From a phage, in assembly GCA_012455605.1 (NCBI GenBank), contig GCA_012455605.1_3618.1: a stretch of 64,000 nucleotides of DNA. One strand, 5' to 3'. The stretch's first letter is position 1, and each line of letters opens with the position of its first letter. Below are positions 10,258-43,875 of this stretch, piece after piece. The position numbers and the translations under genes were made by a program. Below the pieces are notes generated by a model. That model saw only the letters and a program-made list of their open reading frames with translations, made no database searches and was not told where the DNA came from.

Positions 10258-10288
10258 GGCCCTATCAAAACGAAAGGGGACCACAGCA

Positions 10289-10561
10289 ATGACCAAACAA
10301 TATCAACGAATTAAGGCCAAGGTTAAGCCAGACTATCTGGAGAAAGACTCTGCTTTTCGGGACTGCACAGCCGACAAAGTTTACACAGGGGCCGTCCTGT
10401 TGAACGATGAACTTGAAGTAGATATTCTGGGTAAAGAGGCCACTATTAAGGACGACCAAGGCGATTATGTTTGCTGCACCACACGTGAGCTAGAAATCTT
10501 AGAATACTTCGGTGAAATCTTCACCTCTCTTGATGATTACTTAGATGATGAGGAAGCGTGA
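10289..10561 (+). CDS. hypothetical protein
   Basis: Start moved to the ATG at 10289, downstream of the consensus promoter (track ORF began inside the promoter). Confidence 0.45.
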   Translation: MTKQYQRIKAKVKPDYLEKDSAFRDCTADKVYTGAVLLNDELEVDILGKEATIKDDQGDYVCCTTRELEILEYFGEIFTSLDDYLDDEEA

Positions 10562-16739: not shown

Positions 16740-17300
16740 TATCAAGTATAAGGGGGATTTCTAAAATGGATTTCCTCCTTTTGATATTTCACCGGGCCGG
16801 ATATTTTAAAATTCTTAGAAAATCAGAAAATGGATCGAAAACTAAAATGGATTTTTCAGAGTAGGCGCGACAAGCTGAATAACTCATCCTATCGTTTGCA
16901 CCATATTCCAGGCCACCATTATAGATTTCCCACACATGCTAACCTCTCTCTACTAGAACTTCCTCCACTTACCCTTGACCTTCTATGGTAACAATCTAAC
17001 CGCTATCTTGAAGTTGCGGTGCAGCTTTCCAGGTACTCGATCTACTTTTCATTTCAGGGCTTGGATTTTCTGAAAATTTTTCTCGATAAATTTCTCAGTA
17101 CTCGATCTGTTTTTCGTTTTCTGAATCGGATTTTCTGGAAATCGTTCCGGCTCTCAACCTGAAATTTTGGGGACGAAATCGATTTTTCGTTTTCAGAAAT
17201 GGATTTTTAAAATTTCTATATGGGAATATTTTAGTGGATACTATTTTATAGTAAATTGTTACGGAGGGTAATTAGCGTGCTAATTAAATTTATTAAATGC
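16740..17300. repeat. non-coding direct-repeat region (AAATGGATTT and TACTCGATCT-T-rich units)
   Basis: At least 4 copies of AAATGGAT(T/C), 2-3 of (G)TACTCGATCT(A/G)TTTT, 2 of GGATTTTCTG(G)AAA; no credible ORF. Confidence 0.6.
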
Positions 17301-17355
17301 GAGGAGTTCTCATTTAGAATTTTGAATGATAATCATTCTCGTTTGCAGAATAATG

Positions 17356-17377
17356 GGCAGGCCCGGTGATTGTCTCC
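17356..17377. other. conserved element GGCAGGCCCGGTGATTGTCTCC (copy 1; variant at 17498-17512)
   Basis: 22 nt recurs exactly in inverted orientation at 26837-26858. Confidence 0.5.
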
Positions 17378-17735
17378 CGGCCCCTGCTGCCCCGGCTTGT
17401 TATTATAGTATCACACAGGACAAAGAAAGCAAGGATTTTTTGCATAAACTTTTAAATGATAATGATAACCGTTCTCATTTTATGCAGCGCCCATCCCCGG
17501 TGGTTGTCTCCCCCGTCACCGGTGCCTGTCGTCCTTTCGATAGGTATATTGTGCCACCTGGCGGGGCCGCTGTCAACACTTTTCAAAAAATTTTTCTAAC
17601 CTGATGCGCTAACCGCTGCAACCTGGCGGGGCCAGCCTGGCAGGACCTAACTGACCAGGTAGGAGAGAATGAAGGCTTGTAAACCTGGTGGGCCTATGCT
17701 ATAGGAGAAGTAACAATTGAAGAGGAGGTACAAAA

Positions 17736-17912
17736 ATGGAAGGTAATATGATCCCCCTGGAAAATGTAGCTATTAATGACGCTGAGGCTATCGCCCTGGT
17801 TGAAAAGGCTATGGCGGGAGCGTTGGAATATAAAGAAGAGTACGAAAAAATGATGGTTAACCTGGCAGGGGTGGCGGCTGGAGAATTCCGCCCAAAAAAT
17901 AATTTTAACTAA
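17736..17912 (+). CDS. small hypothetical protein (58 aa)
   Basis: ORF below the track cutoff; GAGGAGG 7 nt upstream of the ATG. Confidence 0.4.
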   Translation: MEGNMIPLENVAINDAEAIALVEKAMAGALEYKEEYEKMMVNLAGVAAGEFRPKNNFN

Positions 17913-17915
17913 TGG

Positions 17916-17944
17916 TTGACAGCTCGGACAGTTCTTGTTATTCT
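17916..17944 (+). promoter_or_regulatory. sigma70-like promoter (TTGACA-N17-TATTCT)
   Basis: Consensus -35, acceptable -10. Confidence 0.4.
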
Positions 17945-17997
17945 TATCCTCACAAGGTGAACAACACCACACTAATTAACAGAGAGGATAAAAAATC

Positions 17998-18195
17998 ATG
18001 AACGCCTACGGAATCAAAGTACGTCGCAGCACTCGCCAGGTGGTCACCGATCAAATGGTTTGCCAGGTGGATGTAACCATCAACAACGGGCAAGGCCTTT
18101 ATAAATTTCGTCGCGGTCATAGCTATACCCTGCAACAGCTTAATCGTTGCGCCCTGACAAAAGGCCAGATCAACCACTGGTTTAATAAAAAATAA
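17998..18195 (+). CDS. hypothetical protein
   Basis: 65 aa basic protein. Confidence 0.45.
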   Translation: MNAYGIKVRRSTRQVVTDQMVCQVDVTINNGQGLYKFRRGHSYTLQQLNRCALTKGQINHWFNKK

Positions 18196-18198
18196 ATA

Positions 18199-18227
18199 TT
18201 GACATATAGTCTGACACAAAATATACT
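18199..18227 (+). promoter_or_regulatory. sigma70-like promoter (TTGACA-N17-TATACT)
   Basis: Consensus hexamers. Confidence 0.55.
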
Positions 18228-18259
18228 GAAATCACAAAAGACACTAAGAGGATAAAATC

Positions 18260-27706: not shown

Positions 27707-28126
27707 ATGAACATTAAATCTAATAATCCGGCATATAGCTTTGATAACGCTTTTTGTCACGGCCCGGCGGCGAAAGGATTCGAAATCGATGGTAAACTAA
27801 TTATTGTCAATGTTGACGGGGAAGAGGTTGCAGTATATCCGGTGGCAGACGTAAAAAGCCGTTTACAATGCCGCATTGATGTTACCGCCTATCAGCTTGA
27901 TCCGGTCCGCATAGTTGCCCTGGTCCTGGAAGAAGAAATTAAAGCCATGCACCATAGCAACAGGTTTATTGGTGACGCCCAGGATAATATGAAGGTATGC
28001 CGCCATAAAGTTAATGAAGTGCTTAAAGAATATGGCTTTAAAGATCTGATGATCAAACGTGAGGAAAAATTCCGCTACCGTAACGACCTGGCAAATCGAA
28101 TCTATGAAATATACGAATCATTATAA
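27707..28126 (+). CDS. hypothetical protein
   Basis: 139 aa; last plus-strand gene before the convergent region. Confidence 0.5.
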   Translation: MNIKSNNPAYSFDNAFCHGPAAKGFEIDGKLIIVNVDGEEVAVYPVADVKSRLQCRIDVTAYQLDPVRIVALVLEEEIKAMHHSNRFIGDAQDNMKVCRHKVNEVLKEYGFKDLMIKREEKFRYRNDLANRIYEIYESL

Positions 28127-28144
28127 TTTCTTAACTAAACTATC

Positions 28145-28172
28145 AGGGGCTTTAAAAGGCCCCTTTCTTTTT
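28145..28172 (+). terminator. rho-independent terminator (AGGGGC-TTTAAAAG-GCCCCT then TTCTTTTTG)
   Basis: Stem-loop and T-tract closing the plus-strand block. Confidence 0.6.
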
Positions 28173-28559
28173 GTCTGTATTTCTCCTACCACAAACGGCC
28201 CAGCCTGGCAAGTGGAATAATTGACTAGCCATCAATCCCACACACTGTACAAACATACATGTAAAATAACTATTGCATAATTTTTCATTGTGTGGTAGCA
28301 GGGCCATTTTTACCCGTTTTCTCTCTCAAAATTGCACGTAATGCCGCTATTGCACAAAATTTAACCTGATGCACATCTTCAATATCTTGTCAACAACTAA
28401 AAATCTTTATAAGTCATACACTTACACACTCACAAAAGCGTGTTCTACGTGAAAAATCGAGTATAACTATAGCCGCCAGATCTCAGAATTTACGTACGCT
28501 CACCATTCTATAGTCTGCTAAGTATTTATTCCAACCATAGAATAACGGAATAGTCAATA

Positions 28560-29440
28560 CCTGCATAAAATAATTATTCGTGTAAACTGCATAACATAAA
28601 TCAGCTTATGTGTCAACATTCTTGGTAAACAGTCCGAAATTGTAATGGTAAGTTATAATAAACAGAGAAATCTTTAGTCGTCTAATGTTTACTGTACATA
28701 ACTATACTGACTGGAATCATTAGATGACTAAGAGAAAGATAAGAAATCATTAACAATGCAATTGTTTTATTCGTAACAATAAGGCAACTATGCAAACGAA
28801 TGGCATGGCGCGACGGAGTCGCGACATAATATAAAAGCAGTAACCATCACCCCCGTGATAGTTTGTCTGCAAACTATTAATCAGATCATAGTTGCCTTGT
28901 ATTTAGTTAATCATGACATAACAAGCAAGGCAACTATAGATCTTCTAATAGTTGCCCTGCTTTTATATTATGTCATCTATTGTAAACAAGTTAATTATTG
29001 TCATGCAAACGAATGTCATGGCTTATCATTTTTGAGTAAACAATCTATGCGTGAACAGTTAGCTATGTAAACTATTAGACATGTAAACTATTGAGAATGT
29101 AAACAGTAAAGGGAGTGAATAGTGATAGCGTAAACAGTCAGGCATGTCAATTATGTTCAGTGTCACCATTATGTCATATTGTGTCACAGTATGCCCAGTA
29201 TGTCAGACAAGTTTTTCTCCTCTTTGTCAAGTGCTGCATGAAAAATTTACAATCTGGTATGGTAGCATTTTTGCGGCCCTGTTTACATTCAGTTGTGTAT
29301 GTATAAGCCTTGTTGTGTGGGCGTTTAGACGTCTAGACGGTTGGAAGTCTACAGGTCAATATCTAATCTATTGGTTGCTAACTATATCCCACACAAATAG
29401 TAAGAAATATAATTGTTATGTGTGTAAACTGTAACTCATG
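28560..29440. repeat. AT-rich iteron-like region (TGTAAAC units, AAGGCAACTAT inverted repeats)
   Basis: At least 10 (A)TGTAAAC(A/T) units including three tandem at 29063-29108; AAGGCAACTAT forward at 28781 and 28927, reverse at 28888 and 28948; GCAAACGAATG(G/T)CATGG twice. Confidence 0.6.
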
Positions 29441-29699
29441 TTATCAATCCCTGTATGGATCGCCAGTGGTGCGCATAATGGGTATTATGTTAAATTGCCC
29501 GTAATGATAACAGTTCTCACAATGATAGGTATTCTCATTCAATCCCACAAGATAGGTTGCAAATGTTGTGCCACTGTGTGAACGGCCTCACCTATTAATT
29601 TGCCACACTGCCCCGATATTTGAGAATTGTTATAAGAATGAGAATGATTCCCATTTCGTCCGCCTGGCAGCACTCCAGTCGCTACCGCTCATAACAGGG

Positions 29700-30260
29700 C
29701 AGAACTAGACCCTCTTCAGATATTTCTGGCTGACTCTTCAGGTCTGTGTGGGAAAAGCCAACCTCTCCGGCGGGAAGGGGGGGTCAATTAAAAAATTTAC
29801 GGGGTATATGAAGCGCTCTTCAGGTAAGGCATGTATTATGGGATGAAACCCTCTTCAGGCAATGATATTTGTGGGTGTGATATTTGCTGGAAAGCCAGAT
29901 ATGACGGGACTCCCGGCGGGGCAGGGGTAGTACAGGAAGGGAAAATATGGGGATGTAGTTGGGGAAATTGATCAGACAGGTGGAGTATAGTATATGTTAC
30001 AAGTATGTTAAATATGGATGGTGAATATCTATAGGATTTGTGTGTAAAATCAAAGACTTAAGTGGTGTTGTGGTATTTTCTATAAATAATTCAAGTTTAA
30101 TAGGGAATATTTGTCAGAAAGGTAGGTTCAGGTTATTTAAAGTTGTATTTCAGATGCATGTTTACAGAAGCAGGTAACCCCCCTCCCCCTTCGGCTACCA
30201 TTCACCTTTTCCTCTAACTGGTACTTAAACACTTATTCAGACTCTTCAGGTTATCACCCA
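29700..30260. repeat. CTCTTCAG(G) repeat cluster with G-rich inverted repeats
   Basis: Copies at 29712, 29735, 29816, 29851, 30242 (a sixth at 30890); CGGCGGGAAGGGGGGG near 29770 versus CCCCCCTCCCCCTTCGGC near 30178. Confidence 0.55.
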
Positions 30261-30601
30261 TATATCATATGGCAGTGACTGGTGTCCTCAGGCCCCTCTT
30301 TCGTCACCCGTCCGCTTCGCCATGCTAATGCCATAGCCAGTGGTTCGGTTGTTCACCCTGTTCACTCAGGTGTATCTCCATACCCCTTCAAACCGAAGAG
30401 AACAGAAAACCCGAATTACTCGGTAAAAGAAAAGAGAAGAACTTAATTTTATCAGGATAGGCAAGAATGTCAAGGCATGACTGCTCACTAAACAAGCAAA
30501 CAGTCATGTGTGGGAGGTAAGTGATTGTGGTGGTAGGAAATTTAGTTGAAAGATGTGTTATAGGTGCTCCCAGCACTTTTAGCCGGGCAGCTAGTTGTGT
30601 G

Positions 30602-33295: not shown

Positions 33296-33583
33296 TCATA
33301 GTGCCTCTAAGATTTCATACCCTTCGGGTCGGAATACAAGCCACTCCGTGGCTCCGTTTGGTCGATATGCTTTATACAAAACAACCTGATCTCGGCACAT
33401 GCACATAGCTACATAGTTTTCATCCACACCTGCAGCCTGCATTGCATCTTCTTCTCCGGCAACTGCTTTGCTTACAACCTCCTTGGTAGGCAGGTGTGCG
33501 ATCAGCTCGTCACCATCATTAATTCCAAAATGGCTGAGTTCTCCATTGGTATCTTTAATCTTAATCTTAACCAGATCTTTCAT
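33296..33583 (-). CDS. small acidic protein (C-terminal YEILEAL)
   Basis: Member of the small acidic-tail family. Confidence 0.45.
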   Translation of the reverse strand: MKDLVKIKIKDTNGELSHFGINDGDELIAHLPTKEVVSKAVAGEEDAMQAAGVDENYVAMCMCRDQVVLYKAYRPNGATEWLVFRPEGYEILEAL

Positions 33584-33912
33584 TAGTCTTCCTCCAGGTT
33601 CAAAGGTCCTAAGATTTCATATGCCAGATTAGAAGTTACCAGAGGGTCTTCTGCGTCTTTAGTATTATACCACCCGTGAATAACCAGAGTCCCACTTTGT
33701 TTCATGTCCAACTGGAACTCTTCTGCCGTTTCCTCATCCAGCTCCAAGATTTCCATAAGGTATTTGATGTTAGGGAGGTATGCAGCTGTTACAGTCCCCT
33801 CTACCAGACCTTCAGGCCAACCTACATCTGGATGACAAGTAGGAACCAGGTTGGTCAGCTTAATGGTGTACGCTTTTTCTGCACGAGCCTTCAGTAACGG
33901 GTCAATCTTCAT
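33583..33912 (-). CDS. small acidic protein (C-terminal YEIL...LEED)
   Basis: Start/stop overlap with neighbours; acidic-tail family. Confidence 0.45.
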   Translation of the reverse strand: MKIDPLLKARAEKAYTIKLTNLVPTCHPDVGWPEGLVEGTVTAAYLPNIKYLMEILELDEETAEEFQLDMKQSGTLVIHGWYNTKDAEDPLVTSNLAYEILGPLNLEED

Positions 33913-34262
33913 TATTCGTCCTCCTCTTCGGTACCTGCTTCCAGTAATAAGTTAAGAATATCTTCTGCACAAGGTTCATAGAACTCTTGGCCTTCATTAT
34001 CGATGATTTTGTAGTCATCTCCACGAATAATCAGGGGATCACTCTCAAAATTATCGAGACCTTTAACAACGACAACACGATCGATTGCCATCATTGTAAG
34101 AACTTTATCGACATCTTCCTCTGCTACACCATACTGCAGCAGAATGTCTTTGGTAGGAGGAACAGCATCCACCACAACGCCGTTACCAAAACCTTCTGGA
34201 AGTTTAGCTAAAATATCTTCCGGAACCACATTCACATCAAAACCGGTAATTTCTACTTTCAT
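33912..34262 (-). CDS. small acidic protein
   Basis: 116 aa with acidic C-terminus; weak similarity to 34263 and 35688. Confidence 0.45.
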   Translation of the reverse strand: MKVEITGFDVNVVPEDILAKLPEGFGNGVVVDAVPPTKDILLQYGVAEEDVDKVLTMMAIDRVVVVKGLDNFESDPLIIRGDDYKIIDNEGQEFYEPCAEDILNLLLEAGTEEEDE

Positions 34263-34523
34263 TTACAGCACCTCTTCGTCAACTACTTCATAAAAATGGC
34301 CTGGGATTGCAATAGCGTTCTCACCTTCACCTACAAACACAGTTCCGTCAAGAATCAACATCATAAGAATTTCTGTAATATCCTCTTCCGGAACGTTGCC
34401 AAAACCTTTAATCAGCTCGTAGGTTGGAATATTTACCTCTAAGATGTCACCATCTTTAGAACGGAAATCAACACCGTCCTGAATCTCTGCCGTTTCAAGG
34501 TTTTTCAATTTAATCTTCATCAA
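34263..34523 (-). CDS. small acidic protein (C-terminal YEVVDEEVL)
   Basis: Acidic-tail family. Confidence 0.45.
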   Translation of the reverse strand: MMKIKLKNLETAEIQDGVDFRSKDGDILEVNIPTYELIKGFGNVPEEDITEILMMLILDGTVFVGEGENAIAIPGHFYEVVDEEVL

Positions 34524-34600
34524 TCGGTCCCCCTGTCTTATTAAGATGAAGGTATTATTTCACACAGGGTTGGCGTTGTCAACACCTGTGTGCAAGAAAA

Positions 34601-34996
34601 TTACTGAAACAGTGCGGATAAATTACCTTCTGGTGGGAACTTATCTGCCAAAAACGGTGTTAGCACAGTAGCCTTCTGAAGATCTGGGGTCCACTCGTTG
34701 TTCAGAACATCCCAGTAGTACGCAATGTTGCTGTGTGGGTGCCGCATTACGAACTTTTTCCCTTCGTAGTCATCTGAAACCTCTACAGAAGAAATAACAA
34801 CAGAATCTTCAAGGGTTTCTTCATAGAAAGATCCACCTTCAAATTTCCAACGAGATGCAAGAGCCCCTGCCTTGAACGCTGCAGATAACGGACTGTCGGC
34901 AAGAACATACATTTCTTGCACTCTGTCGCTGCGATCTTTGCTTCTTACGTTGTATACAGTATCTGAGCTATACTCAACACGGTATAGGCTTACCAT
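34601..34996 (-). CDS. hypothetical protein, paralog of 36808-37206
   Basis: Shared HP.S...YW......WTP core between the two 131-132 aa proteins. Confidence 0.5.
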   Translation of the reverse strand: MVSLYRVEYSSDTVYNVRSKDRSDRVQEMYVLADSPLSAAFKAGALASRWKFEGGSFYEETLEDSVVISSVEVSDDYEGKKFVMRHPHSNIAYYWDVLNNEWTPDLQKATVLTPFLADKFPPEGNLSALFQ

Positions 34997-35355
34997 TACC
35001 GCACCTCCTCAATAACTTCCACATCTGAACCTACCACAAATGCAAAAGGACAGGTTTCATGAAAGATATCCGGATCGCCGCCAAGCTTGCTAACAATTTC
35101 TCCACCACTAATAAACACAAGCTCACCGATATTCATCAGATTGCTGAAATAGTACCCATAATGATTAAAGAATGCAGCAGGGTCAGGTAGACTAGTAGCC
35201 TCAAGCACTACATCGGTTGAGGTTACTTTCTTATCATAACCTCTCGCCTTTTGAGATGCAAGATCTGCAGAATCCTCAGGCGACCGGAGATGCACAGGAA
35301 TTGTTTCACCAATAAAGCGTACTTTCATATTATCACCCAACAACCATAGCTTCAA
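34996..35355 (-). CDS. small acidic protein (C-terminal DVEVIEEVR)
   Basis: Acidic-tail family. Confidence 0.45.
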   Translation of the reverse strand: MKLWLLGDNMKVRFIGETIPVHLRSPEDSADLASQKARGYDKKVTSTDVVLEATSLPDPAAFFNHYGYYFSNLMNIGELVFISGGEIVSKLGGDPDIFHETCPFAFVVGSDVEVIEEVR

Positions 35356-35596
35356 AAGGAGTCATGAACGAATAAACGGCATCATCATCTGCTTCAGGGA
35401 ATGCTCCCAAAGACTTCATATCCGAGCCCTTGACAAATACAAGGTTTTGATCAAAGGCTTCTTGGGGGTCAATCCGATACATATTTCGTAAAATATCGCT
35501 TACCTCCTCATCAAGAGGTGAGTATGCTGTGCACGTTTTTCCGATCAAGCTTTGAGAATCAGGGTATCCACCTGAAGTTTTAAAATAAACAATCAT
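35333..35596 (-). CDS. hypothetical protein
   Basis: 87 aa. Confidence 0.4.
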   Translation of the reverse strand: MIVYFKTSGGYPDSQSLIGKTCTAYSPLDEEVSDILRNMYRIDPQEAFDQNLVFVKGSDMKSLGAFPEADDDAVYSFMTPFEAMVVG

Positions 35597-35687
35597 ATAG
35601 TATCACCTCTGGTAAGAGATTGGGACTCCTTTCCCACAAATAATTACAAATCTTCCTTAGCGAGGAAGTATGCTAATCCAAGCAGGA

Positions 35688-35957
35688 TTATTCCTCTACA
35701 ATCTCATACACATCGGGAGTTACAATCAACTCTTCTCCGTTACCCGGTGCAACAAACACCACCAAACCTTCAGGTGTGTGCTTTTTAGCCATCTCGATAA
35801 CATCTTCTCGCAGAGCTGGCTCCATCAGATCAAAACCTTCACCTAGGGCATCACGAACCACCTTCATATAGTCCACTGGTTGTGCTTCAACAATCATGCC
35901 TTCAACCAGTCCACAATTTTTGTCTGCCAGCTCAGTTTGGAATAATTTAATTTTCAT
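35688..35957 (-). CDS. small acidic protein (C-terminal VYEIVEE)
   Basis: Acidic-tail family. Confidence 0.45.
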   Translation of the reverse strand: MKIKLFQTELADKNCGLVEGMIVEAQPVDYMKVVRDALGEGFDLMEPALREDVIEMAKKHTPEGLVVFVAPGNGEELIVTPDVYEIVEE

Positions 35958-36094
35958 TTAGAGGTCTCCTCAATTATTTGATATTAATAGCCGTAACCTA
36001 ACACATTAACTACAACTGCGATTGCAAACATAATTTCAAAGCATGCAATCTCTACATTTGGGACTAATTTCTTAATCACACCCATTGTAGCACC

Positions 36095-36415
36095 TCATTC
36101 TCCAAAGTCAATCTTTACTTTGCCTTTCCCCTTACCTTTCTTTCCACCGCATTTAGCCAGCTGACGTGCTGCAACATCTACCATACGGTCAGTTGCCTCG
36201 TAAGCATCACTGCCTTTAGCCTTGGCAATAACTTCTTTTCCAGAATTGTCAAAAATGAACGCCATAACTTCCTGGTGATCATTTTCAACTTTTACACTCA
36301 CACGTGCATAGTTAACAGAGGGATGTAAACGCTCCAGCTTGGACATTTTGCGGGAAATAAAAGATACCATACCTTCTGTGATTTCTACATTGTTGCCAGT
36401 GATTTCAATTTGCAT
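36095..36415 (-). CDS. hpf: ribosome hibernation promoting factor (HPF/RaiA) homolog
   Basis: MQIEITGNNVEITEGM...KLERL...VSVKVEN...KGSDAYEATDRMVDVAARQLAK follows the bacterial HPF/YfiA pattern along its length. Confidence 0.75.
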   Translation of the reverse strand: MQIEITGNNVEITEGMVSFISRKMSKLERLHPSVNYARVSVKVENDHQEVMAFIFDNSGKEVIAKAKGSDAYEATDRMVDVAARQLAKCGGKKGKGKGKVKIDFGE

Positions 36416-36499
36416 AACGTGTTCCTTTTAAGGAAGAGGGAATAACTATCTCTCTTTGAAAACAATGATACTAAATCTGAAGCGTTGTGTCAACAGTTT

Positions 36500-36790
36500 T
36501 TACAGCTTGTTGTCGATAGTTTTTAAAATATCCACAGCAAGATCTGCCATTTTTCGAACATACTCTGCAAACTCAACAGGATCCTTGATCAAAGAATTCA
36601 CAGGGTCGTACCCTAGAGCGTTTAAAATGGCTGCAGCATCTACAACCTTCTCATCATTTGCGAAGATCTCTCCGTCAAACTTGTAGGTCCATTTTGAGTC
36701 AACCTTAGCAGAGCAGGGTTTGTCCATGCTTGTTACACCATCGTCTTTAAACTCTCCTGCGTTATCAATATTTAGAATTAAATCCATCAT
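36500..36790 (-). CDS. hypothetical acidic protein
   Basis: 96 aa. Confidence 0.45.
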   Translation of the reverse strand: MMDLILNIDNAGEFKDDGVTSMDKPCSAKVDSKWTYKFDGEIFANDEKVVDAAAILNALGYDPVNSLIKDPVEFAEYVRKMADLAVDILKTIDNKL

Positions 36791-36807
36791 GGTGACACCT
36801 CACTGTT

Positions 36808-37206
36808 TCAGTTTAGCTTTTCTTCAACAACCCCATAACTTGGGGCAGAGTCAAGAGCTTTCTGGTTTAAAAGTGGCGTAGCAGAATCTGCAAACGGTGT
36901 CCAAGTTTTTGTTCTGGCATTCCAGTAATGCTTCACTCTGGAGTCTGGATGCACTATAACAAAAACTTTTTCACTTGTCAACACATTAATTTCTTCTACA
37001 CCCTTGCTGATAATTTCTCCGTCATAGCCCCCAGTCTGGTATCCTTCGTACCAGGTTCTTGCATAGGCATAGCCAGCCTGCCAGCATGCAGCCTCCTCCG
37101 AGGTGGAGACTACGTAGAAGTCTTTCTCAAATTCTGGAATACGCCCTTGCTTTACGCTCCAAGCCCCGCGAATTTTCATTGTAACTTTAAACAGTTTATT
37201 TTTCAC
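36808..37206 (-). CDS. hypothetical protein, paralog of 34601-34996
   Basis: Shared VIVHPDSRVKHYWNARTKTWTP-type core. Confidence 0.5.
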   Translation of the reverse strand: MKNKLFKVTMKIRGAWSVKQGRIPEFEKDFYVVSTSEEAACWQAGYAYARTWYEGYQTGGYDGEIISKGVEEINVLTSEKVFVIVHPDSRVKHYWNARTKTWTPFADSATPLLNQKALDSAPSYGVVEEKLN

Positions 37207-37218
37207 AACGGTTACCCA

Positions 37219-37473
37219 TCACAGCTCTACAATATCTGCATCTGACCCTACCCCAAAGGCATAGTAGGACTCTTCCCCGAAATAATATTCAGGTGCACCA
37301 GCGGTGATCAGGTCTGATCCCAAGATAAACACCACGTTGTGGCCTACATAACTGTGATGTTGCCGCACAGGATCATCCCACGGCAACCCTTCAAAGTATA
37401 CCGCAGGAACGACCTTTCCATTCAGGAAGGATTGTCCCAAGTAGACGTTAGAATCAAGAATTTTAACCTTCAT
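37219..37473 (-). CDS. small protein of the MKVK-LD family (C-terminal DADIVEL)
   Basis: Paralogous to 37463 and 41016 (MKVK.LDS..Y.GQ...GKV, LI.AGA). Confidence 0.5.
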   Translation of the reverse strand: MKVKILDSNVYLGQSFLNGKVVPAVYFEGLPWDDPVRQHHSYVGHNVVFILGSDLITAGAPEYYFGEESYYAFGVGSDADIVEL

Positions 37474-37690
37474 GATCGTCCTCCACTACCTCTACATCCT
37501 CACCTAGGGCAAAGTTATAGGTCCACTGACTGTCAAAGCATTCCTGAGATGCACCAGCGGCAATAAGATCTGCTCCTTTTATTTTTAAAAGGTCAGGGTA
37601 ATCTTCGTTAGGGACAGCAGTAAACACTTTTCCTACTAAAGGCTCCTGACCAATATAGAAGCTTGAATCTAAAACTTTAACTTTCATCAA
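37463..37690 (-). CDS. small protein of the MKVK-LD family (C-terminal DVEVVEDD)
   Basis: Tandem paralog of 37219. Confidence 0.5.
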   Translation of the reverse strand: MMKVKVLDSSFYIGQEPLVGKVFTAVPNEDYPDLLKIKGADLIAAGASQECFDSQWTYNFALGEDVEVVEDDHEG

Positions 37691-37974
37691 CGGTCTCCAT
37701 CAGGTGGTTGTGGGACGTAAACACTGTTACGAATATCGTCAGCAGTGTAGTAATAAGTGGTTCCAACCCTGTCTCGGGCTGCAATGTACTCTGCTATACC
37801 AATAAGTGCCATTGATTTGGTGGCGTATCTTCCCAACTCGTTAGCTCCCCAGTAGAATTTAGACCAGTAGGGAATAAGACCGAACAAATATACCTTTTGA
37901 CGAACTTCCCAGTAAGTGCCTTTTCCGACAAGTTTAAACTCTACTTCACTACTGTTAATCTTTTTCATTATCAA
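37687..37974 (-). CDS. hypothetical protein
   Basis: 95 aa. Confidence 0.45.
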   Translation of the reverse strand: MIMKKINSSEVEFKLVGKGTYWEVRQKVYLFGLIPYWSKFYWGANELGRYATKSMALIGIAEYIAARDRVGTTYYYTADDIRNSVYVPQPPDGDR

Positions 37975-38267
37975 TCTCCCTCTACCGTGGTCGGATTGTC
38001 AGTAAGAAATTGAGCATTGGCTGGAGGCACGCCTGACATTTTCCACACAACCATAAGTTTGTAACCAGGCACTCTATTAAGTGCAGATCGAGTAGAGTTT
38101 GTGCACGTATACTTTCGCTTTCCAAACCCGTTCTCCATCATAATCCAGTACCCAGTATCTTTGTCACCAGGTATCGGTAGACCACCTTCATCAACCCACT
38201 GAATGGACCACGGCACGATGGCTACAGCTTTATATTTAAACTTTTTAAACCACTCAAAAAGTTTCAT
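37971..38267 (-). CDS. hypothetical protein
   Basis: 98 aa. Confidence 0.45.
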   Translation of the reverse strand: MKLFEWFKKFKYKAVAIVPWSIQWVDEGGLPIPGDKDTGYWIMMENGFGKRKYTCTNSTRSALNRVPGYKLMVVWKMSGVPPANAQFLTDNPTTVEGD

Positions 38268-38452
38268 AATTCAGCCTCGCTTGGCAACTCTTCTACCTTA
38301 ACATGCCGAAAAGTGTTACCGTAATGGTTGATCCATGACATCAGCTCGCTTTCTTGCTCTTCCTCTGGGATGAACTCTCGAATGCTGACAAGTTTTAAGA
38401 AAACCCAATCACAATCTGCACCCATTCTACCAGACAGGCAATAGTGCTTCAT
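38264..38452 (-). CDS. hypothetical protein
   Basis: 62 aa. Confidence 0.35.
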   Translation of the reverse strand: MKHYCLSGRMGADCDWVFLKLVSIREFIPEEEQESELMSWINHYGNTFRHVKVEELPSEAEL

Positions 38453-38470
38453 AAAACCCTCCTGCCTGGT

Positions 38471-38665
38471 TTAGAATATTGCTTCTTCCATTGCGCCTGA
38501 GAGCAACAAAGAGGTGATCTGGCTAACATTCATCTCAGACTCTACTTCCTCCCCTTTGAAAGGTTCGCGGCAGAATAGGACTGTTTCAGGACTTTTACTT
38601 CGAACAATATAATACAAATCATTCAATGTGTTGTAGTAATAAGTGTTAAAACGTAAGTTTTTCAT
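38471..38665 (-). CDS. hypothetical protein
   Basis: 64 aa. Confidence 0.35.
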   Translation of the reverse strand: MKNLRFNTYYYNTLNDLYYIVRSKSPETVLFCREPFKGEEVESEMNVSQITSLLLSGAMEEAIF

Positions 38666-38949
38666 TTTCTAGTCCTCTTCTTAGATTTTTGGGGAGAAAC
38701 GCTTTCTGCAATACGAGACAGACGTTCTTCTGAAGCCTTACCTACTCCAGGTTTTTTAAGTGGATTATCTTTATGACCACAATCCAACTGGATATTGGAT
38801 ACCTCTCCAACTTTGTAAGTCAATTCTAGTAAAAGGTTGTCGTCCTTGTCAAATGTTTTTACGATAAATTTTTTATCGTTCTCCTGAACTTCATATCTGG
38901 TACCTGCAGTATACAGCATGGTGCCATCAGCATAGGATATCCAGATCAT
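38662..38949 (-). CDS. hypothetical protein
   Basis: 95 aa. Confidence 0.45.
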   Translation of the reverse strand: MIWISYADGTMLYTAGTRYEVQENDKKFIVKTFDKDDNLLLELTYKVGEVSNIQLDCGHKDNPLKKPGVGKASEERLSRIAESVSPQKSKKRTRK

Positions 38950-39293
38950 TGAGCCTCCTTTTGCTGCAACAGCATTAACTCTTTGTTAGAGATCTTTACT
39001 GCTGTTTTTATTGTTCCATCTTCACGAAACCACGACCAGAACTCTACAGTGTCACCACTATCAAGTAAAGCATGCCCATGGTAAAAATCTTTGTCCTTAG
39101 ACAGTTTCTCATCTATATCTGCATCAACACATTCGTGATCCATAGCATTTTGCCTGAACGCATCGGTTATGCCAATGCACGCCTTGCTCTCAAGACTGGT
39201 ATATCCGATATCTTTTAATTCAGTTTCCCAAGTCCAGTACCCTATAAAAGCTAAAACAGCTACCCACAGTAATAACGTTTTAATCTTTGGCAT
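38946..39293 (-). CDS. putative secreted or membrane-anchored protein
   Basis: N-terminal MPKIKTLLLWVAVLAFIGYWTW. Confidence 0.45.
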   Translation of the reverse strand: MPKIKTLLLWVAVLAFIGYWTWETELKDIGYTSLESKACIGITDAFRQNAMDHECVDADIDEKLSKDKDFYHGHALLDSGDTVEFWSWFREDGTIKTAVKISNKELMLLQQKEAQ

Positions 39294-39355
39294 TCTCTCT
39301 ACCTCTCTCTTAGTTTATTTCACTATGGCACATCCTTTGTGCCATATCTCAACTA

Positions 39356-39826
39356 CTACTTAAATAGTAGTTCAAAATAGTGCAAAATTAACAGAAGTTG
39401 AACTACACCTAGTGCAACGGCGAGTATGTTAATCTTAGAATCGAAAAACTTCTTAACTTTTACTCTAAAAGGTTCCTTAATGTCCTTTACGATCCTATCT
39501 ATAGATGACCTCATATCTCTGATTACCATCCTGAACATTAAAGACGGATGCTCCCCCATCTCTGTAACGGAATCGAAAACATACTCTCTTCGGTCATAAG
39601 GGCCGCCAGCTCTGCGTATTAACCTCTCCACAGAGACCTCGAACGTCACACCTGTAACGTAATCATCTATAACAAGTCGTGACGGGTCTTTACCTTTACT
39701 ATCAAGAGGTATCAAAGTTATCTTTCCAGATTTTGTTAAAATTTCCCCTTTTTCAAGCAAGGTGTACCAATGCTCTCTGCCAAGACTGTTGAGGCACGTT
39801 TTTACATATTTAACAAACATCGTCAC
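39356..39826 (-). CDS. hypothetical protein with C-terminal hydrophobic segment
   Basis: 156 aa; ends ILAVALGVVQLLLILHYF. Confidence 0.45.
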   Translation of the reverse strand: MTMFVKYVKTCLNSLGREHWYTLLEKGEILTKSGKITLIPLDSKGKDPSRLVIDDYVTGVTFEVSVERLIRRAGGPYDRREYVFDSVTEMGEHPSLMFRMVIRDMRSSIDRIVKDIKEPFRVKVKKFFDSKINILAVALGVVQLLLILHYFELLFK

Positions 39827-40026
39827 CCCTCATCGCACGTCTGATATAACCACTCTATAAAATCTTGATACCATTCGCCCTCTGAGCGCTCCGTAGGCCA
39901 ATAATCTTCACCCTCTCGTGCATTAAAATCTGAGTATTCAACTTTCCACTCCTTTACCAGCTCGTGGAGAAGGTTTTCAGCCTGCTCTAAAGATTTATTT
40001 TTTACCATTGCTGTCTCCTTTTTCAA
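39823..40026 (-). CDS. hypothetical protein
   Basis: 67 aa. Confidence 0.4.
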   Translation of the reverse strand: MKKETAMVKNKSLEQAENLLHELVKEWKVEYSDFNAREGEDYWPTERSEGEWYQDFIEWLYQTCDEG

Positions 40027-40227
40027 GATAGTTATACATCAGAACTGCACCACCTAAGATGGCTACCAGTAACAATATCCCAGATAGCATCTCAATAAAC
40101 ATGGCTTGAAACACTGGAAGGTCTCCCTAAATTAACGCACCATTTTAAATACATGCTCTTTTCCCATAAAGGTGCCTGGCTAAGATCTGCGTAGAACGCA
40201 ATCTCTTTAAGAACAGTATAGATAGTT

Positions 40228-40455
40228 TTAGGTGCGGTCTCCATCCCTACTCTCCTTCCTGATATTCTTGTAGTAATCAACTAGGCACATTATTACGATG
40301 AAGATAACAACAGGCCAAAAAGGTGCAGCAGTGATGATGGTGATAAAATCATCAAACTTCACCCTTCGTCTGGACACGATGCATACACCTGTCAAGAATA
40401 CCGCTGTTATAACGGATATTACCAGGTAACCTATTAACACAACATTTATACTCAT
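40228..40455 (-). CDS. putative membrane protein
   Basis: Two hydrophobic segments. Confidence 0.4.
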   Translation of the reverse strand: MSINVVLIGYLVISVITAVFLTGVCIVSRRRVKFDDFITIITAAPFWPVVIFIVIMCLVDYYKNIRKESRDGDRT

Positions 40456-40485
40456 TAGCCTTCCCTTTATAGGTTAAATTGTATA

Positions 40486-41019
40486 CTACAGATGGTTGCT
40501 TATGGTGTCAAGAAAAGTATCCCGTTCTTTCTTGGAGTTTTCACAGGTGTAGCTGAAAAACATATCTAGAATAACCTTATTGATATATTCCAGCTCCTCC
40601 GTGTTCAGGTACTTAGCAGGATCTACAATGACATCCCAAGTCTCATACAGACCGCACTCATGATACCCCCAACGCTGCTCAATTGTCAAGCTGAGCGGCA
40701 AATCTTTACCGTCACAAACAACCTTCCATCTACAAATGCTGGTATCTGGGCGCAACTGTGTACGGTATACCTGTACAAAATCCAATCTGAATTTGAGGTA
40801 CTCGTCATACAATTTAAGCACAAAGCTCTCAATTTGTGGAGACACTTTTGCAGCAAACTGTGCGTATTTATACTTGCACTGGATGATCTTTCTGCGTTTC
40901 GCAGTTAAATTTTTTGCAGCCAGTTGTTCTTCAGTATATCTCCATCTACGATCAACAAACGCAACAGGGTCTTTGTCCCCATAGAGGTCTTCCCAGTTAA
41001 TAAGAAGCATACCTGTCAC
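40486..41019 (-). CDS. hypothetical protein
   Basis: 177 aa. Confidence 0.5.
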   Translation of the reverse strand: MTGMLLINWEDLYGDKDPVAFVDRRWRYTEEQLAAKNLTAKRRKIIQCKYKYAQFAAKVSPQIESFVLKLYDEYLKFRLDFVQVYRTQLRPDTSICRWKVVCDGKDLPLSLTIEQRWGYHECGLYETWDVIVDPAKYLNTEELEYINKVILDMFFSYTCENSKKERDTFLDTISNHL

Positions 41020-41249
41020 TCCTCCACAACTTCAAGGCCTTTGCCGCCTCGTTCTGGTAGATTACTTAAAGATAGGTAATATGTATAGTCAGGAGAGATC
41101 CTGCCAGACTCTGCACCTGCAGCTAATAAATCTTTTCCCTTAACCATGACAACATTATCGTTTGCAGATAGCCGTTTTGCTTCCACAATTTTACCAATGC
41201 AGTCAACCAAAGAAGGGTACCCTAAATCTGTAAGAAATTTAACTTTCAT
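41016..41249 (-). CDS. small protein of the MKVK-LD family (C-terminal LEVVEE)
   Basis: Paralog of 37219 and 37463. Confidence 0.5.
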   Translation of the reverse strand: MKVKFLTDLGYPSLVDCIGKIVEAKRLSANDNVVMVKGKDLLAAGAESGRISPDYTYYLSLSNLPERGGKGLEVVEE

Positions 41250-42825: not shown

Positions 42826-43875
42826 TTAAGCTTCTTCGACAATTCCTGCACCCAGGATTTTTTCATTGAGCTCTTTTGCTGTTTTAATAATATTGTCCAC
42901 CAGACGCTTGCGGGTCTTATCTTTAACCTGAACTTCTTCACCTCCGTTCAGGGTGGTTTTCAATTGGGACAAAATGTCCTGAAGCTCTACCACAGAGAAC
43001 CGCTGCAGATCTTCCGAGGTAATCTCACCCAGTGCAATCTTAATGGTCTCACCGCTCTCCATCTGCAGATTCAGGAACACAGTGTGAACATCACCTTTCA
43101 TACCATTTGCTTTTGCAGACTCAACAGCATGAACCAGCTCGTCCAGAGATGTGCATTGGTGAATCTCTGGCAGGCCTGCTTCACCTAGCACGCCTTCTTC
43201 ATCACTTTTTGCCAAAAGCTTTTTCGGTTTCTGTCCATTCTGAATGCGCTGAATGTTTTCATCGTCCAGAATAATAGCACCAGTTCGAGATGCCAGCTCT
43301 TCCCCATCTAACCACACTTCGCCGCCAGCTGTGATGGATGCGATCTCATCTTCTGTTAGCACTCCACCGTAGTATTTTTCGATCAGGCGTTCAAAACGTT
43401 TCTTCCAGTAGTTGACCTGGGTATTCATGTTCACACCGTTACCATAGGTGCCACCTTGATAGTAGTGGAACATAAATTCTGTGTCCGGAGCCACAGTTCG
43501 TTCTTTGCAACCCAGCCATAAGATTGTTCCTGCCGAGCAGCACATCCCTTCAGCGTGTACAACAACGCTTGCCTGAGACTCGCGGAATGCCTGCAAATAC
43601 GCCATAGCGATGTGAACGCAACCACCAGGACTGTTAATAATCACCCGAATGCTTTCTTCCGGCTGAGCCATACGGATCGTCTGCAGACGAGACATATGAT
43701 CTTGTAAGTCTTCCAAATCGTCGATATAAAGAACGTGGTCAACAACAGGTGTTGGGTAGCTGTATGTTTCCATAATACCACCCGGCATACCGAACATTTT
43801 ATTACTCATAGGTTCGAAACCGTTCTGTTTTTCTTTCGTGCCGTGTACCATGGTGCTGCGATGTGTTAAATTCAT
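42826..43875 (-). CDS. ClpP-family serine protease-like protein
   Basis: INSPGGCVHIAMAY and GMCCSAGTIL resemble the ClpP INSPGG and catalytic-Ser motifs. Confidence 0.6.
   Translation of the reverse strand: MNLTHRSTMVHGTKEKQNGFEPMSNKMFGMPGGIMETYSYPTPVVDHVLYIDDLEDLQDHMSRLQTIRMAQPEESIRVIINSPGGCVHIAMAYLQAFRESQASVVVHAEGMCCSAGTILWLGCKERTVAPDTEFMFHYYQGGTYGNGVNMNTQVNYWKKRFERLIEKYYGGVLTEDEIASITAGGEVWLDGEELASRTGAIILDDENIQRIQNGQKPKKLLAKSDEEGVLGEAGLPEIHQCTSLDELVHAVESAKANGMKGDVHTVFLNLQMESGETIKIALGEITSEDLQRFSVVELQDILSQLKTTLNGGEEVQVKDKTRKRLVDNIIKTAKELNEKILGAGIVEEA

What the first reader, a model, noticed from the sequence alone, without database searches (positions are those of the whole stretch)
33296..41249. 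Array of paralogous small acidic proteins sharing a C-terminal (V/I)E(V/I)(V/L)EE-like tail
At least nine small minus-strand ORFs end in very similar acidic tails: LEVVEE, DVEVVEDD, DADIVEL, DVEVIEEVR, YEIVEE, YEVVDEEVL, YEILEAL (33296, 33583, 34263, 34996, 35688, 37219, 37463, 41016), and the plus-strand ORF 9094-9321 ends VVVEEDL. Three of them share an MKVK-LD N-terminus, and a separate 131 aa pair (34601, 36808) is clearly paralogous. A recurrent C-terminal tag on diversified small proteins suggests a common interaction partner or targeting signal.
Basis: seen in the sequence. Interest (0 to 1): 0.65.

Follow-up and report, generated by a model that had tools for sequence, protein, structure and literature searches.

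The report
Shared tail is a barrel strand
Ten small genes in the accessory region of an rV5-like coliphage form two amplified families of tiny barrel-shaped proteins, and their look-alike acidic ends are the last structural strand of that barrel, overlapped by the ribosome-binding site of the next gene, rather than a free targeting tag.

Summary
The window is a Vequintavirus (rV5-like) genome. Between 33296 and 41249 on the minus strand lie two five-member paralog families. Family A is 41016, 37463, 37219, 35333 and 34996. Family B is 35688, 34263, 33912, 33583 and 33296. A separate paralog pair is 34601/36808. The motif E[IV][IVL][ED] falls in the last 12 residues of 7 of 112 genes, against 0.39 expected.

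The tail is not a free tag.
- Family A corresponds to phrog_5009, which has no Pfam family and no known function. It spans 68 clusters in many phages, often in tandem. The acid-hydrophobic-hydrophobic-acid-acid strand is kept there, even when the domain is internal.
- In 6 of the 10 genes the acidic codons (GAG, GGA, GAA) also encode the Shine-Dalgarno sequence, or overlap the start codon, of the next gene. This dual coding also accounts for the tail of the unrelated ORF 9094.

All genes tested are under purifying selection (pooled pN/pS 0.10). Their function is unknown; I infer host-directed protein-binding accessory factors. Interest is modest.

The parts
41016..41249 (-). Family A member (77 aa, ends LEVVEE); sequence used for the family A AlphaFold2 model
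   Evidence: phrog_5009 E 6e-36; deep HMM E 1.6e-23. AF2 pLDDT 94.8, with residues 72-76 (LEVVE) a beta-strand.
37463..37687 (-). Family A member (74 aa, ends VEVVEDDHEG)
   Evidence: phrog_5009 E 2e-38; deep HMM E 5e-29. BLASTP to 37219 gives E 5e-14.
37219..37473 (-). Family A member (84 aa, ends DADIVEL), with an insertion between strands 2 and 3
   Evidence: phrog_5009 E 4e-32; deep HMM E 1e-22.
35333..35596 (-). Divergent family A member (87 aa) with a non-acidic tail, EAMVVG
   Evidence: Deep HMM E 1.9e-17 (its ortholog was in the training set). phrog_5009 E 1.2e-4. The top BFVD structural hit is an 87-aa protein of Shigella phage CM1.
34996..35328 (-). Divergent family A member (110 aa, ends DVEVIEEVR) with a long insertion
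   Evidence: Deep HMM E 3.6e-7, with no ortholog in the training set. BLASTP to 37219 gives E 3e-4. Start corrected from P0013 and the Murica annotation.
35688..35957 (-). Family B member (89 aa, ends YEIVEE); sequence used for the family B AlphaFold2 model; no closely following gene
   Evidence: Leave-one-out HMM E 1.9e-4. AF2 pLDDT 91.5, with residues 84-88 a beta-strand and a helical insertion at 30-60. The next start is 91 nt away.
34263..34520 (-). Family B member (85 aa, ends YEVVDEEVL)
   Evidence: Leave-one-out HMM E 1.4e-3. BLASTP to 33912 gives E 1e-5.
33912..34262 (-). Family B member (116 aa); motif YKIID is internal and followed by a 30-residue acidic extension
   Evidence: Leave-one-out HMM E 3.4e-9; alignment.
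33583..33912 (-). Family B member (109 aa, ends YEILGPLNLEED)
   Evidence: Leave-one-out HMM E 3.2e-4.
33296..33583 (-). Family B member (95 aa, ends YEILEAL); no closely following gene
   Evidence: Leave-one-out HMM E 5.4e-6. The next start is 89 nt away.
34601..34996 (-). Separate paralog pair, first member (131 aa)
   Evidence: BLASTP to 36808 gives E 3e-10; phrog_7379 E 2e-66.
36808..37206 (-). Separate paralog pair, second member (132 aa, ends GVVEEKLN)
   Evidence: phrog_7379 E 4e-74.
41019..41025 (-). GGAGGAG: codons of the terminal V-E-E of the 41016 gene, doubling as the Shine-Dalgarno sequence 8 nt before the ATG at 41010
   Evidence: Read directly from the sequence. The Murica record annotates an RBS at the matching position.
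37471..37484 (-). GGAGGACGATCATG: the tail codons V-E-D-D-H of the 37463 gene. They hold the SD sequence and the ATG of the 37219 gene. The 'DDHEG' extension is that gene's ATG AAG GTT AA read in another frame.
   Evidence: Read directly from the sequence.
35004..35010 (-). GAGGAGG: codons E-E-V of the 34996 tail, doubling as the SD of the overlapping 34601 gene
34271..34275 (-). AGAGG: codons E-E-V of the 34263 tail, doubling as the SD of the 33912 gene
33919..33926 (-). GAGGAGGA: codons E-E-E-D of the 33912 tail, doubling as the SD of the 33583 gene
33590..33595 (-). GGAGGA: codons L-E-E of the 33583 tail, doubling as the SD of the 33296 gene
34554..34582 (-). Sigma-70-like promoter (TTGACA, 17 nt spacer, AATAAT, extended -10) in the gap upstream of the 34263-33296 block
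   Evidence: Consensus scan, 11 of 12 positions matched. Consensus match only.
36084..36111 (-). Sigma-70-like promoter upstream of the 35688 gene
   Evidence: Consensus scan, 10 of 12 positions matched. Consensus match only.

Best explanation
The shared '(V/I)E(V/I)(V/L)EE' ending has two superimposed causes.

(1) Structure. This part rests on structure prediction and alignment. The core [Y/V/L]-E-[I/V]-[I/V/L]-[E/D] is the last beta-strand of a small, roughly 70-residue SH3-like beta-barrel. The first strand of that barrel is the equally recurrent N-terminal MK[V/I]K[L/F]. Ten genes of the array carry this domain, in two tandemly amplified families. Family A is the compact form and belongs to the widespread phage family phrog_5009. 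Family B has the same strand order with a helical insertion of about 30 residues after strand 2, and was found only in Vequintavirus. The two hydrophobic residues would pack into the barrel, and the flanking glutamates would be solvent-exposed.

(2) Dual coding. This is read directly from the DNA. The genes are translationally coupled. The Glu, Gly and Val codons of the tail (GAG-GAG, GGA, GAG-GTN, GAA-TGA) are also the Shine-Dalgarno sequence, and sometimes the overlapping ATG, of the next gene. That reinforces and extends the acidity. It also gives unrelated ORFs, such as 9094, similar endings.

(3) Function. This is inferred, not shown. The proteins are single-domain, non-enzymatic protein-binding modules. 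They are probably expressed from host-type sigma-70 promoters in the accessory region, and probably act on host proteins (takeover or counter-defence). Paralogs would differ in target through their variable loops and insertion.
For: Identity of the window:
- It is 99% identical to Vequintavirus genomes, and all the genes in question are annotated as hypothetical.

Family definition:
- BLASTP links among the ORFs.
- phrog_5009 hits.
- A deep family A HMM finds five window genes.
- Leave-one-out HMMs recover each of the five family B genes as the top non-training hit.

Structure:
- AF2 pLDDT is 94.8 (A) and 91.5 (B). Residues 2-5 and the tail (A 72-76, B 84-88) are beta-strands.

Link between A and B:
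- hhalign gives an end-to-end colinear alignment with score 24.2 and P 6e-4. Thirty column-shuffled controls scored about 8.3 on average, maximum 11.9.

Conservation of the tail in family A:
- In 50 terminal domain copies from 50%-identity cluster representatives, the five tail columns are 77% acidic, 88% hydrophobic, 92% hydrophobic, 79% acidic and 96% acidic.
- In 10-12 internal copies they are 67%, 82%, 82%, 55% and 60%.

Dual coding:
- Six of the 10 tails contain the SD of the next gene, and 37463 also contains its start codon.
- Across the window, an SD-like 4-mer lies in the last 15 nt of the CDS at 23 of 42 tight junctions, against 11 of 68 loose ones (Fisher p 3.8e-5).
- Glu makes up 19.5% of the last five residues at tight junctions, 11.2% at loose ones and 7.2% in protein bodies.
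- All 20 family A genes found in other phages have the next start within -17 to +4 nt, typically ...GAG GTT ATT GAA GAA TGA.

The core does not depend on coupling:
- 35688 and 33296 keep YEIVEE and YEILEAL although the next gene is about 90 nt away.

The genes are real:
- dN/dS is 0.01-0.23 per gene for the 12 genes of equal length compared with phage ECP32, covering nine of the ten family genes (41016 lies outside the fetched stretch); pooled pN/pS is 0.10.

Accessory character:
- Family A forms tandem arrays in unrelated phages: three copies each on L015 and L016 and two adjacent copies on L019. L005 carries two copies about 4 kb apart.
- A homolog lies between the Q antiterminator and the holin gene of mEp021-like prophages.
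- The syntenic 33 kb of a Seunavirus has no member.
- Sigma-70-like promoters lie in the intergenic gaps.
Against: - I could not inspect coordinates. The pairing of strand 1 with the last strand, and the inward or outward orientation of individual residues, are therefore inferred from SH3 topology rather than seen.
- Homology between A and B is not established by sequence: hhalign probability is 11-29%, and 1.7% with shallow profiles.
- The column-shuffle control also destroys the trivially shared Met-Lys start.
- Acidic residues stay in the majority even in internal domain copies, where no downstream ribosome-binding site is needed. Dual coding therefore cannot be the whole reason for the acidity, and a functional acidic surface remains possible.
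- Nothing here bears directly on function. There is no annotated homolog, no Pfam, NCBIfam or PDB sequence match, and no expression data.
Confidence: 0.7

Rival explanations
1. The tail is a free C-terminal recognition peptide, such as a degron, an adaptor handle or a targeting signal. It would be read by one common partner, for example the phage's own ClpP-like protease encoded just upstream or a host hub.
For: - The acidic residues are conserved beyond what a buried strand needs.
- Most family A proteins end within 0-2 residues of the motif.
- The 349-aa ClpP-like protein at 42826-43875 itself ends GAGIVEEA.
Against: - The tail is a high-confidence beta-strand inside the fold, with no disordered linker before it.
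- The motif keeps its pattern when internal, in tandem or fused proteins and in 33912.
- 35333 lacks the acids.
- From general knowledge, known ClpXP and Tsp C-terminal degrons are non-polar (the LAA type), and acidic C-termini tend to stabilise proteins.
- Much of the acidity is accounted for by SD and start-codon overlap.
Confidence: 0.08
2. Families A and B are not homologous. Their similar ends would arise independently, because small beta-barrels begin and end with amphipathic strands and because SD overlap imposes Glu and Gly codons on C-termini.
For: - HMMs of one family do not detect the other (E above 0.9).
- hhalign probability is only 2-29%.
- SD shadowing of C-termini is general across the window, for example in 9094 and 59217.
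- Other small MK[IV][RK]...E[IL][IV][EL] ORFs that the family A HMM does not detect occur on L005.
Against: - The alignment is colinear over the whole length and includes the internal G-x-[IV]-V-x-A strand and the [VL]VF[IV]KG strand.
- The family B insertion sits where family A members 37219, 35333 and 34996 also carry insertions.
- The two families are interleaved within one 8-kb array.
Confidence: 0.3
3. The proteins are acidic decoys or DNA mimics, in the manner of Ocr, Arn or T7 gp5.9. The acidic tail would be part of a phosphate-like charge array that blocks host DNA-binding defence proteins.
For: - Nine of the ten proteins have pI 4.05-4.7 and net charge -7 to -21.
- They lie in an accessory region carrying sigma-70-like promoters.
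Against: - 40% of all small proteins in the window have pI below 5, so acidity is not distinctive.
- 41016 has a net charge of only -1.
- The best-conserved residues are Gly and aromatic (Y11, G43, Y55, F57 in the deep-alignment match columns), not acidic.
Confidence: 0.1
4. The similarity is chance or compositional bias.
For: The region is generally acidic and its C-termini are Glu-rich.
Against: - Seven observed against 0.39 expected.
- The motif columns are aligned and conserved across cluster representatives that are only about 24-46% identical to 37463.
- The paralog families are recovered by leave-one-out HMMs.
Confidence: 0.02

Closest known systems
PHROG family phrog_5009 (unknown function)
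   Same: 37219, 37463 and 41016 match it end to end (E 1e-32 to 1e-38). All 57 distant relatives scanned match it as well. Size, N-terminal MKVKLL, the G-x-E-L-I-x-x-G-A core and the E-[IV]-[IV]-E-E end are shared.
   Different: The PHROG entry carries no function, no fold and no note of paralogy. 34996, and all of family B, sit in separate PHROGs restricted to rV5-like phages. The fivefold plus fivefold amplification in Vequintavirus is not recorded in the rV5 genome paper (PMC3606486).
SH3-like small beta-barrel fold (SH3, KOW, PsaE, PhnA C-terminal domain, retroviral integrase C-terminal domain)
Translationally coupled phage gene junctions (ATGA overlaps with the Shine-Dalgarno sequence inside the upstream gene)
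   Same: The tail codons of 6 of the 10 genes contain GGAG/GAGG 6-9 nt before the next start. Gaps range from -11 to +5 nt. The same holds at 20 of 20 family A junctions in other phages.
   Different: Here the coupling signal coincides with a conserved structural strand whose preferred residues (Glu-Val, Glu-Glu) happen to be spelled by SD-like codons. The two constraints therefore reinforce each other.
C-terminal degradation or targeting tags (ssrA-type and other ClpXP C-motifs)
   Same: A short recurrent sequence at or near the C-terminus of several otherwise different proteins, with a Clp-type protease gene nearby.
   Different: The sequence is predicted to be structured, is acidic rather than non-polar, is retained when internal, and is absent from one family member. 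No feature of a degron was met.

Membership tests
phrog_5009 (phage protein family of unknown function) | Significant full-length match to the family HMM | tested here: met
   37463 E 1.8e-38, 41016 E 6.3e-36, 37219 E 3.7e-32, 35333 E 1.2e-4. 34996 does not hit the PHROG HMM but hits my deeper HMM of the same family at E 3.6e-7. Family B genes do not match.
SH3-like small beta-barrel (fold level) | Five-stranded barrel with the SH3 strand order, and structural neighbours that are SH3 or KOW domains | tested here: met
Canonical SH3 or KOW domain families (sequence level) | Match to the Pfam SH3 or KOW models, and the conserved peptide-binding residues | tested here: not met
C-terminal degron or targeting tag | Unstructured peptide whose function requires the extreme C-terminus | tested here: not met
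   The tail is a beta-strand at pLDDT around 90 or higher. The motif is retained in the 10-12 aligned internal domain copies and lies internally in 33912.
C-terminal degron or targeting tag | Binding to a common receptor or protease | not testable with these tools
   No multimer prediction or interaction data were available.
Acidic DNA-mimic proteins (Ocr, ArdA, Arn, gp5.9) | Strong net negative charge arranged like DNA phosphates, with resemblance to a known mimic | tested here: inconclusive
HPF/RaiA (some GenBank records label the 35688 ortholog 'sigma 54 modulation factor') | Match to Pfam Ribosomal_S30AE | tested here: not met
   35688 has no Pfam hit. The true HPF homolog is the neighbouring gene 36095-36415, which scores E 4e-15. 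The second label in records such as ECP32 therefore looks like an annotation error.

The most novel reading that the evidence does not exclude
The conserved acid-hydrophobic-hydrophobic-acid-acid terminal strand is more than structural. It would be a shared docking edge, acting by beta-augmentation or as an acidic stripe. Through it a diversified family of SH3-like phage effectors would plug into one common hub, for example as substrate adaptors for the phage's own ClpP-like protease or for a host machine. Each paralog's variable loops or insertion would recruit a different host target. The family's tandem amplification in several unrelated phage lineages would then reflect an arms race.
Probability: 0.07. 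Interest if true: 0.65.

Novelty: new member of a known kind. Interest (0 to 1): 0.3.

Why it matters
It removes a tempting false lead. A recurrent acidic C-terminal "tag" here turns out to be a structural strand plus the footprint of the next gene's ribosome-binding site.

It also gives a fold and a family structure to ten "hypothetical" genes carried by more than a hundred sequenced rV5-like phages. phrog_5009 is shown to be a widespread small SH3-like module with no Pfam family that repeatedly amplifies in tandem. That makes it a reasonable candidate for screens of host-takeover or counter-defence factors.

The dual-coding effect is a general caution for motif hunting in tightly packed phage genomes. 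C-termini of translationally coupled genes are enriched in Glu, Gly and Asp for DNA-level reasons.

Tried and rejected
- Pfam, NCBIfam and PDB sequence searches on the ten proteins, and on the family profiles, found nothing.
- PHROGs gave only families of unknown function.
- Foldseek against BFVD returned only uncharacterised phage proteins.
- The afdb50 fold library was unavailable.
- Literature searches for phrog_5009, rV5 paralogs, mEp021 and SH3-like phage early proteins found no description of the family.
- hhalign with shallow profiles gave no A-B link, and an insertion-bearing family A subset did no better.
- The first search for related loci attempt, with the 57-sequence alignment, failed for lack of a conserved stretch.
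- I looked for the families in the syntenic region of a Seunavirus and found none.
- I rejected ORFs 9094 and 9318 as family members: there is no HMM signal, and the 9094 tail is explained by SD overlap.
- 63516-63983, which ends TWEVLE, gives only marginal HMM scores (E 0.004-0.2). I left it unassigned.
- tRNA and Rfam scans of the window found nothing.

Full report
**What the window is**

The 7.95-kb stretch is 97-99% identical to more than a hundred Vequintavirus (rV5-like) coliphage genomes. In the RefSeq record of phage Murica, every gene of the stretch is a "hypothetical protein". The two exceptions are a RaiA/HPF homolog and one "virion structural protein". Coding switches from the plus to the minus strand near 30.3 kb. 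The finding lies in a densely packed minus-strand block downstream of the nucleotide-metabolism genes, a ClpP-like protease and a DNA methyltransferase.

**Checking the observation**

Three starts should be moved to the ATG used by orthologs and by the Murica annotation: 34996-35328, 34263-34520 and 37463-37687.

I took 112 strand-consistent ORFs as likely genes. Among them, E[IV][IVL][ED] occurs 13 times, and 7 of those are in the last 12 residues. The body rate predicts 0.39. Related patterns give 7 against 0.2-0.26. The motif was defined after seeing the data and paralogs are not independent. The excess is still large, and the tails align column by column.

"Acidic" holds for nine of the ten proteins (pI 4.05-4.7). 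41016 has pI 5.4, and 40% of all small proteins in the window have pI below 5.

**Paralogy**

All-against-all BLASTP gives clear links:

| Pair | E-value |
|---|---|
| 37219 - 37463 | 5e-14 |
| 37463 - 41016 | 6e-8 |
| 34996 - 37219 | 3e-4 |
| 33912 - 34263 | 1e-5 |
| 34601 - 36808 | 3e-10 |

Weaker links connect 33296, 35688 and 35333.

A deep HMM of family A, built from window genes plus distant relatives, finds exactly five window genes and nothing else of note:

| Gene | E-value |
|---|---|
| 37463 | 5e-29 |
| 41016 | 2e-23 |
| 37219 | 1e-22 |
| 35333 | 2e-17 |
| 34996 | 4e-7 |

For family B, I built HMMs from four ortholog groups at a time. Each time the omitted fifth gene was the top non-training hit, at E 3e-9 to 1.4e-3. 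Family B is therefore 33296, 33583, 33912, 34263 and 35688.

The 131/132-aa pair 34601/36808 is a third, separate family (phrog_7379). The plus-strand ORF 9094-9321 shows no relationship to either family.

**How far the families reach**

Word-indexed searches of 5.8 billion proteins found both families almost only on rV5-like contigs of about 135 kb. An exhaustive HMM search with the family A profile found 68 clusters at 50% identity.

Most of these are 63-88-aa proteins matched end to end. Their signature is MKVKLLNDGGY-G-...-GK-V-x-A-...-I-x-G-x-[DE]-L-I-x-x-G-A-...-F-...-Y-x-F-...-E-x-E-[IV]-[IV]-E-E. All 57 members scanned hit phrog_5009, which has no assigned function. None has a Pfam family for this domain.

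Genomic contexts of members outside Vequintavirus:
- One lies between the Q antiterminator and the holin gene of mEp021-like temperate phages and E. coli prophages.
- One lies among the replication genes of a 42.5-kb phage.
- Others lie in IMG/VR contigs of 6-66 kb (most about 45-52 kb), often as adjacent copies: three each on L015 and L016 and two on L019. L005 carries two copies about 4 kb apart.

The syntenic 33 kb of a Seunavirus, from the same subfamily, has no member of either family. At the DNA level the array is confined to Vequintavirus.

**What the tail is, part 1: structure**

AlphaFold2 gave confident models for both families.

| Model | Protein | pLDDT | First strand | Tail strand |
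|---|---|---|---|---|
| Family A | 41016 | 94.8 | residues 2-5 (MKVK...) | 72-76 (LEVVE) |
| Family B | 35688 | 91.5 | residues 2-5 | 84-88 (YEIVE) |

There is no low-confidence linker before either tail strand.

Family B differs from family A by a helical insertion at residues 30-60, after the second strand. This is the same position at which family A members 37219, 35333 and 34996 carry insertions.

Profile-profile comparison of B with the deep A profile gives an end-to-end colinear alignment. The aligned elements are:
- MKIKL with MKVKLL.
- G-x-IV-x-A with GK-VV-x-A.
- VVF with V-I-x-G.
- YEIVEE with E-EIVEE.

The score is 24.2 with P 6e-4. Thirty column-shuffled controls averaged about 8.3, with a maximum of 11.9. 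The hhalign probability is only 11-29%. I regard common ancestry of A and B as likely but unproven.

The tail stays conserved across distant family A members. I scored the five tail positions of the family A profile separately for domain copies that end a protein and for copies that lie inside a longer protein.

| Tail position | Residue class | 50 terminal copies | 10-12 internal copies |
|---|---|---|---|
| 1 | acidic | 77% | 67% |
| 2 | hydrophobic | 88% | 82% |
| 3 | hydrophobic | 92% | 82% |
| 4 | acidic | 79% | 55% |
| 5 | acidic | 96% | 60% |

The internal copies come from tandem-domain proteins or proteins with C-terminal extensions. In the window itself, 33912 has the strand (YKIID) 30 residues before its end, and 35333 has it without acids (EAMVVG).

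A motif that is structured, keeps its pattern when internal and can lose its charges is a domain element. It is not a tag that depends on the C-terminus.

**What the tail is, part 2: the next gene's start site**

Reading the DNA shows that the acidic codons do double duty.

| Gene | Tail DNA | Second role |
|---|---|---|
| 41016 | GTT GTG GAG GAG TGA | GGAGGAG lies 8 nt before the next ATG |
| 37463 | GTA GTG GAG GAC GAT CAT GAA GGT TAA | GGAGGA is the SD of gene 37219, and C-ATG-AAG-GTT-AA is that gene's MKVK start; the odd "DDHEG" extension is MKVK read in another frame |
| 34996 | "IEEVR" | GAGGAGG, SD of the next gene |
| 34263 | "DEEVL" | AGAGG, SD of the next gene |
| 33912 | "EEEDE" | GAGGAGGA, SD of the next gene |
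| 33583 | "LEED" | GGAGGA, SD of the next gene |

This is a general property of the window:
- An SD-like 4-mer lies in the last 15 nt of the CDS at 23 of 42 junctions with a gap of 12 nt or less, against 11 of 68 looser junctions (Fisher p 3.8e-5).
- Glu is 19.5% of the last five residues at tight junctions, 11.2% at loose ones and 7.2% in protein bodies.
- The tail of ORF 9094 (GTT GAA GAG GAC CTA, "VEEDL") is the SD of the overlapping gene 9318. That accounts for its resemblance without homology.

In other phages, all 20 family A genes that I could examine are followed by a start at -17 to +4 nt. The typical junction is ...TGC GAG GTT ATT GAA GAA TGA. There GAGGT serves as the SD, and GAA-TGA overlaps the ATG.

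Dual coding is not the whole story. 35688 and 33296 keep YEIVEE and YEILEAL although the next gene is about 90 nt away. Internal domain copies also remain mostly acidic.

**Are the genes real and constrained?**

I compared the window with phage ECP32, which is 92.5% identical over 33296-37690. For the 12 genes of equal length, per-gene dN/dS is 0.01-0.23 and pooled pN/pS is 0.10. Changes in the tails are conservative, V to I or V to L. This is purifying selection, with no sign of diversifying selection within the genus.

**Function**

Nothing identifies a function. There is no enzymatic motif, no annotated homolog and no solved relative. The only structural neighbours among viral proteins are uncharacterised proteins of phages annotated as T4-, T1-, T5- and rV5-like.

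Several facts fit single-domain protein-binding accessory factors aimed at host proteins, as in takeover or counter-defence:
- Perfect TTGACA -35 boxes with good -10 boxes lie in the intergenic gaps at 36493, 36111 and 34582. The rV5 genome paper predicts 33 sigma-70-like promoters across the genome (PMC3606486). The scan overall did not exceed shuffled controls (34 sites against 28.8 ± 5.7), so these are consensus matches only.
- The proteins are small, mostly acidic and SH3-like.
- The genes lie in accessory regions of very different phages.
- They amplify repeatedly in tandem.
- Variation is concentrated in loops and in the insertion.

This is inference. I put it at roughly one in three, with DNA mimicry and adaptor roles as alternatives.

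**Comparison with known things, and novelty**

The sequences are catalogued (phrog_5009 and several PHROGs restricted to rV5-like phages) but undescribed. The rV5 genome paper mentions no paralogs or gene families, and my literature searches found nothing on the family.

The new points are the fold assignment, the two-family structure of the array, the recurrence of tandem arrays elsewhere, and the dual-coding explanation of the acidic ends. These are useful clarifications of an ordinary kind of phage feature, not a new kind of system.

Noticed in passing
window 36095-36415 (-): Phage-encoded ribosome hibernation factor (HPF/RaiA) homolog: Pfam Ribosomal_S30AE E 4e-15, with a Lys/Gly-rich C-terminus. 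It sits in the middle of the array behind its own sigma-70-like promoter at 36493-36465. It is already annotated in related genomes.
   Followed up: partly
window 35688-35957 (-); L022 2393-2662: Several GenBank records (ECP32, navn, nom and others) list 'sigma 54 modulation factor' twice; in ECP32, the one record I inspected, the second label sits on the ortholog of family B gene 35688. This gene has no S30AE Pfam match, so the label looks like an annotation error that has propagated.
   Followed up: partly
P0014 (70 aa; contigs of about 133 kb), corresponding to window 37219-37687: A natural chimera. Its N-terminal half is identical to the 37463 protein and its C-terminal half to the 37219 protein. 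This implies a deletion by recombination between the two adjacent paralogs in some rV5-like genomes.
   Followed up: no
window 42826-43875 (-): ClpP-like protease of 349 aa. The similarity to ClpP-type proteases of other phages covers only about residues 38-230, leaving a C-terminal region of about 120 residues unassigned. The protein ends GAGIVEEA, resembling the family tails.
   Followed up: no
window 9971-10225 and 10229-10561 (+): Another adjacent paralog pair of small acidic proteins on the plus strand: BLASTP E 1e-8, with cross-hits between phrog_12544 and phrog_11936.
   Followed up: partly
hits H2, H3, H14-H16 and others: Eighteen GenBank records named 'Campylobacter phage' (MG0656xx, host given as C. 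jejuni) are 98-99% identical to E. coli rV5-like phages over this region. This suggests mislabelled hosts or contaminating coliphages in that dataset.
   Followed up: no
window about 16800-18250 and 28100-30300: Two stretches contain only short or strand-inconsistent ORFs. The second coincides with a GC dip to 0.384 and with the plus-to-minus strand switch. No tRNA and no Rfam family was found anywhere in the window. The rV5 paper mentions a 'non-coding' box.
   Followed up: partly
window 63516-63983 (-): A 155-aa ORF ending TWEVLE gives marginal scores to both family HMMs (E 0.004 and 0.07-0.24). It might carry a C-terminal barrel of the same type.
   Followed up: no
L005 10738-10905 (+) and 2971-3156 (-): In an unrelated 42.5-kb phage that already carries two family A genes, two more small ORFs start with MRVKF or MKIRL and end with ELEILDER or WEIVEL, yet are not detected by the family A HMM. 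This hints at a broader class of small barrel proteins with the same terminal strands.
   Followed up: no
P0118 (150 aa): One distant family A domain is fused to a DUF3310 domain, which PHROGs label 'nucleotide kinase'. Other members carry Cys-rich or second barrel-like C-terminal extensions (P0101, P0140, P0126, P0148).
   Followed up: no
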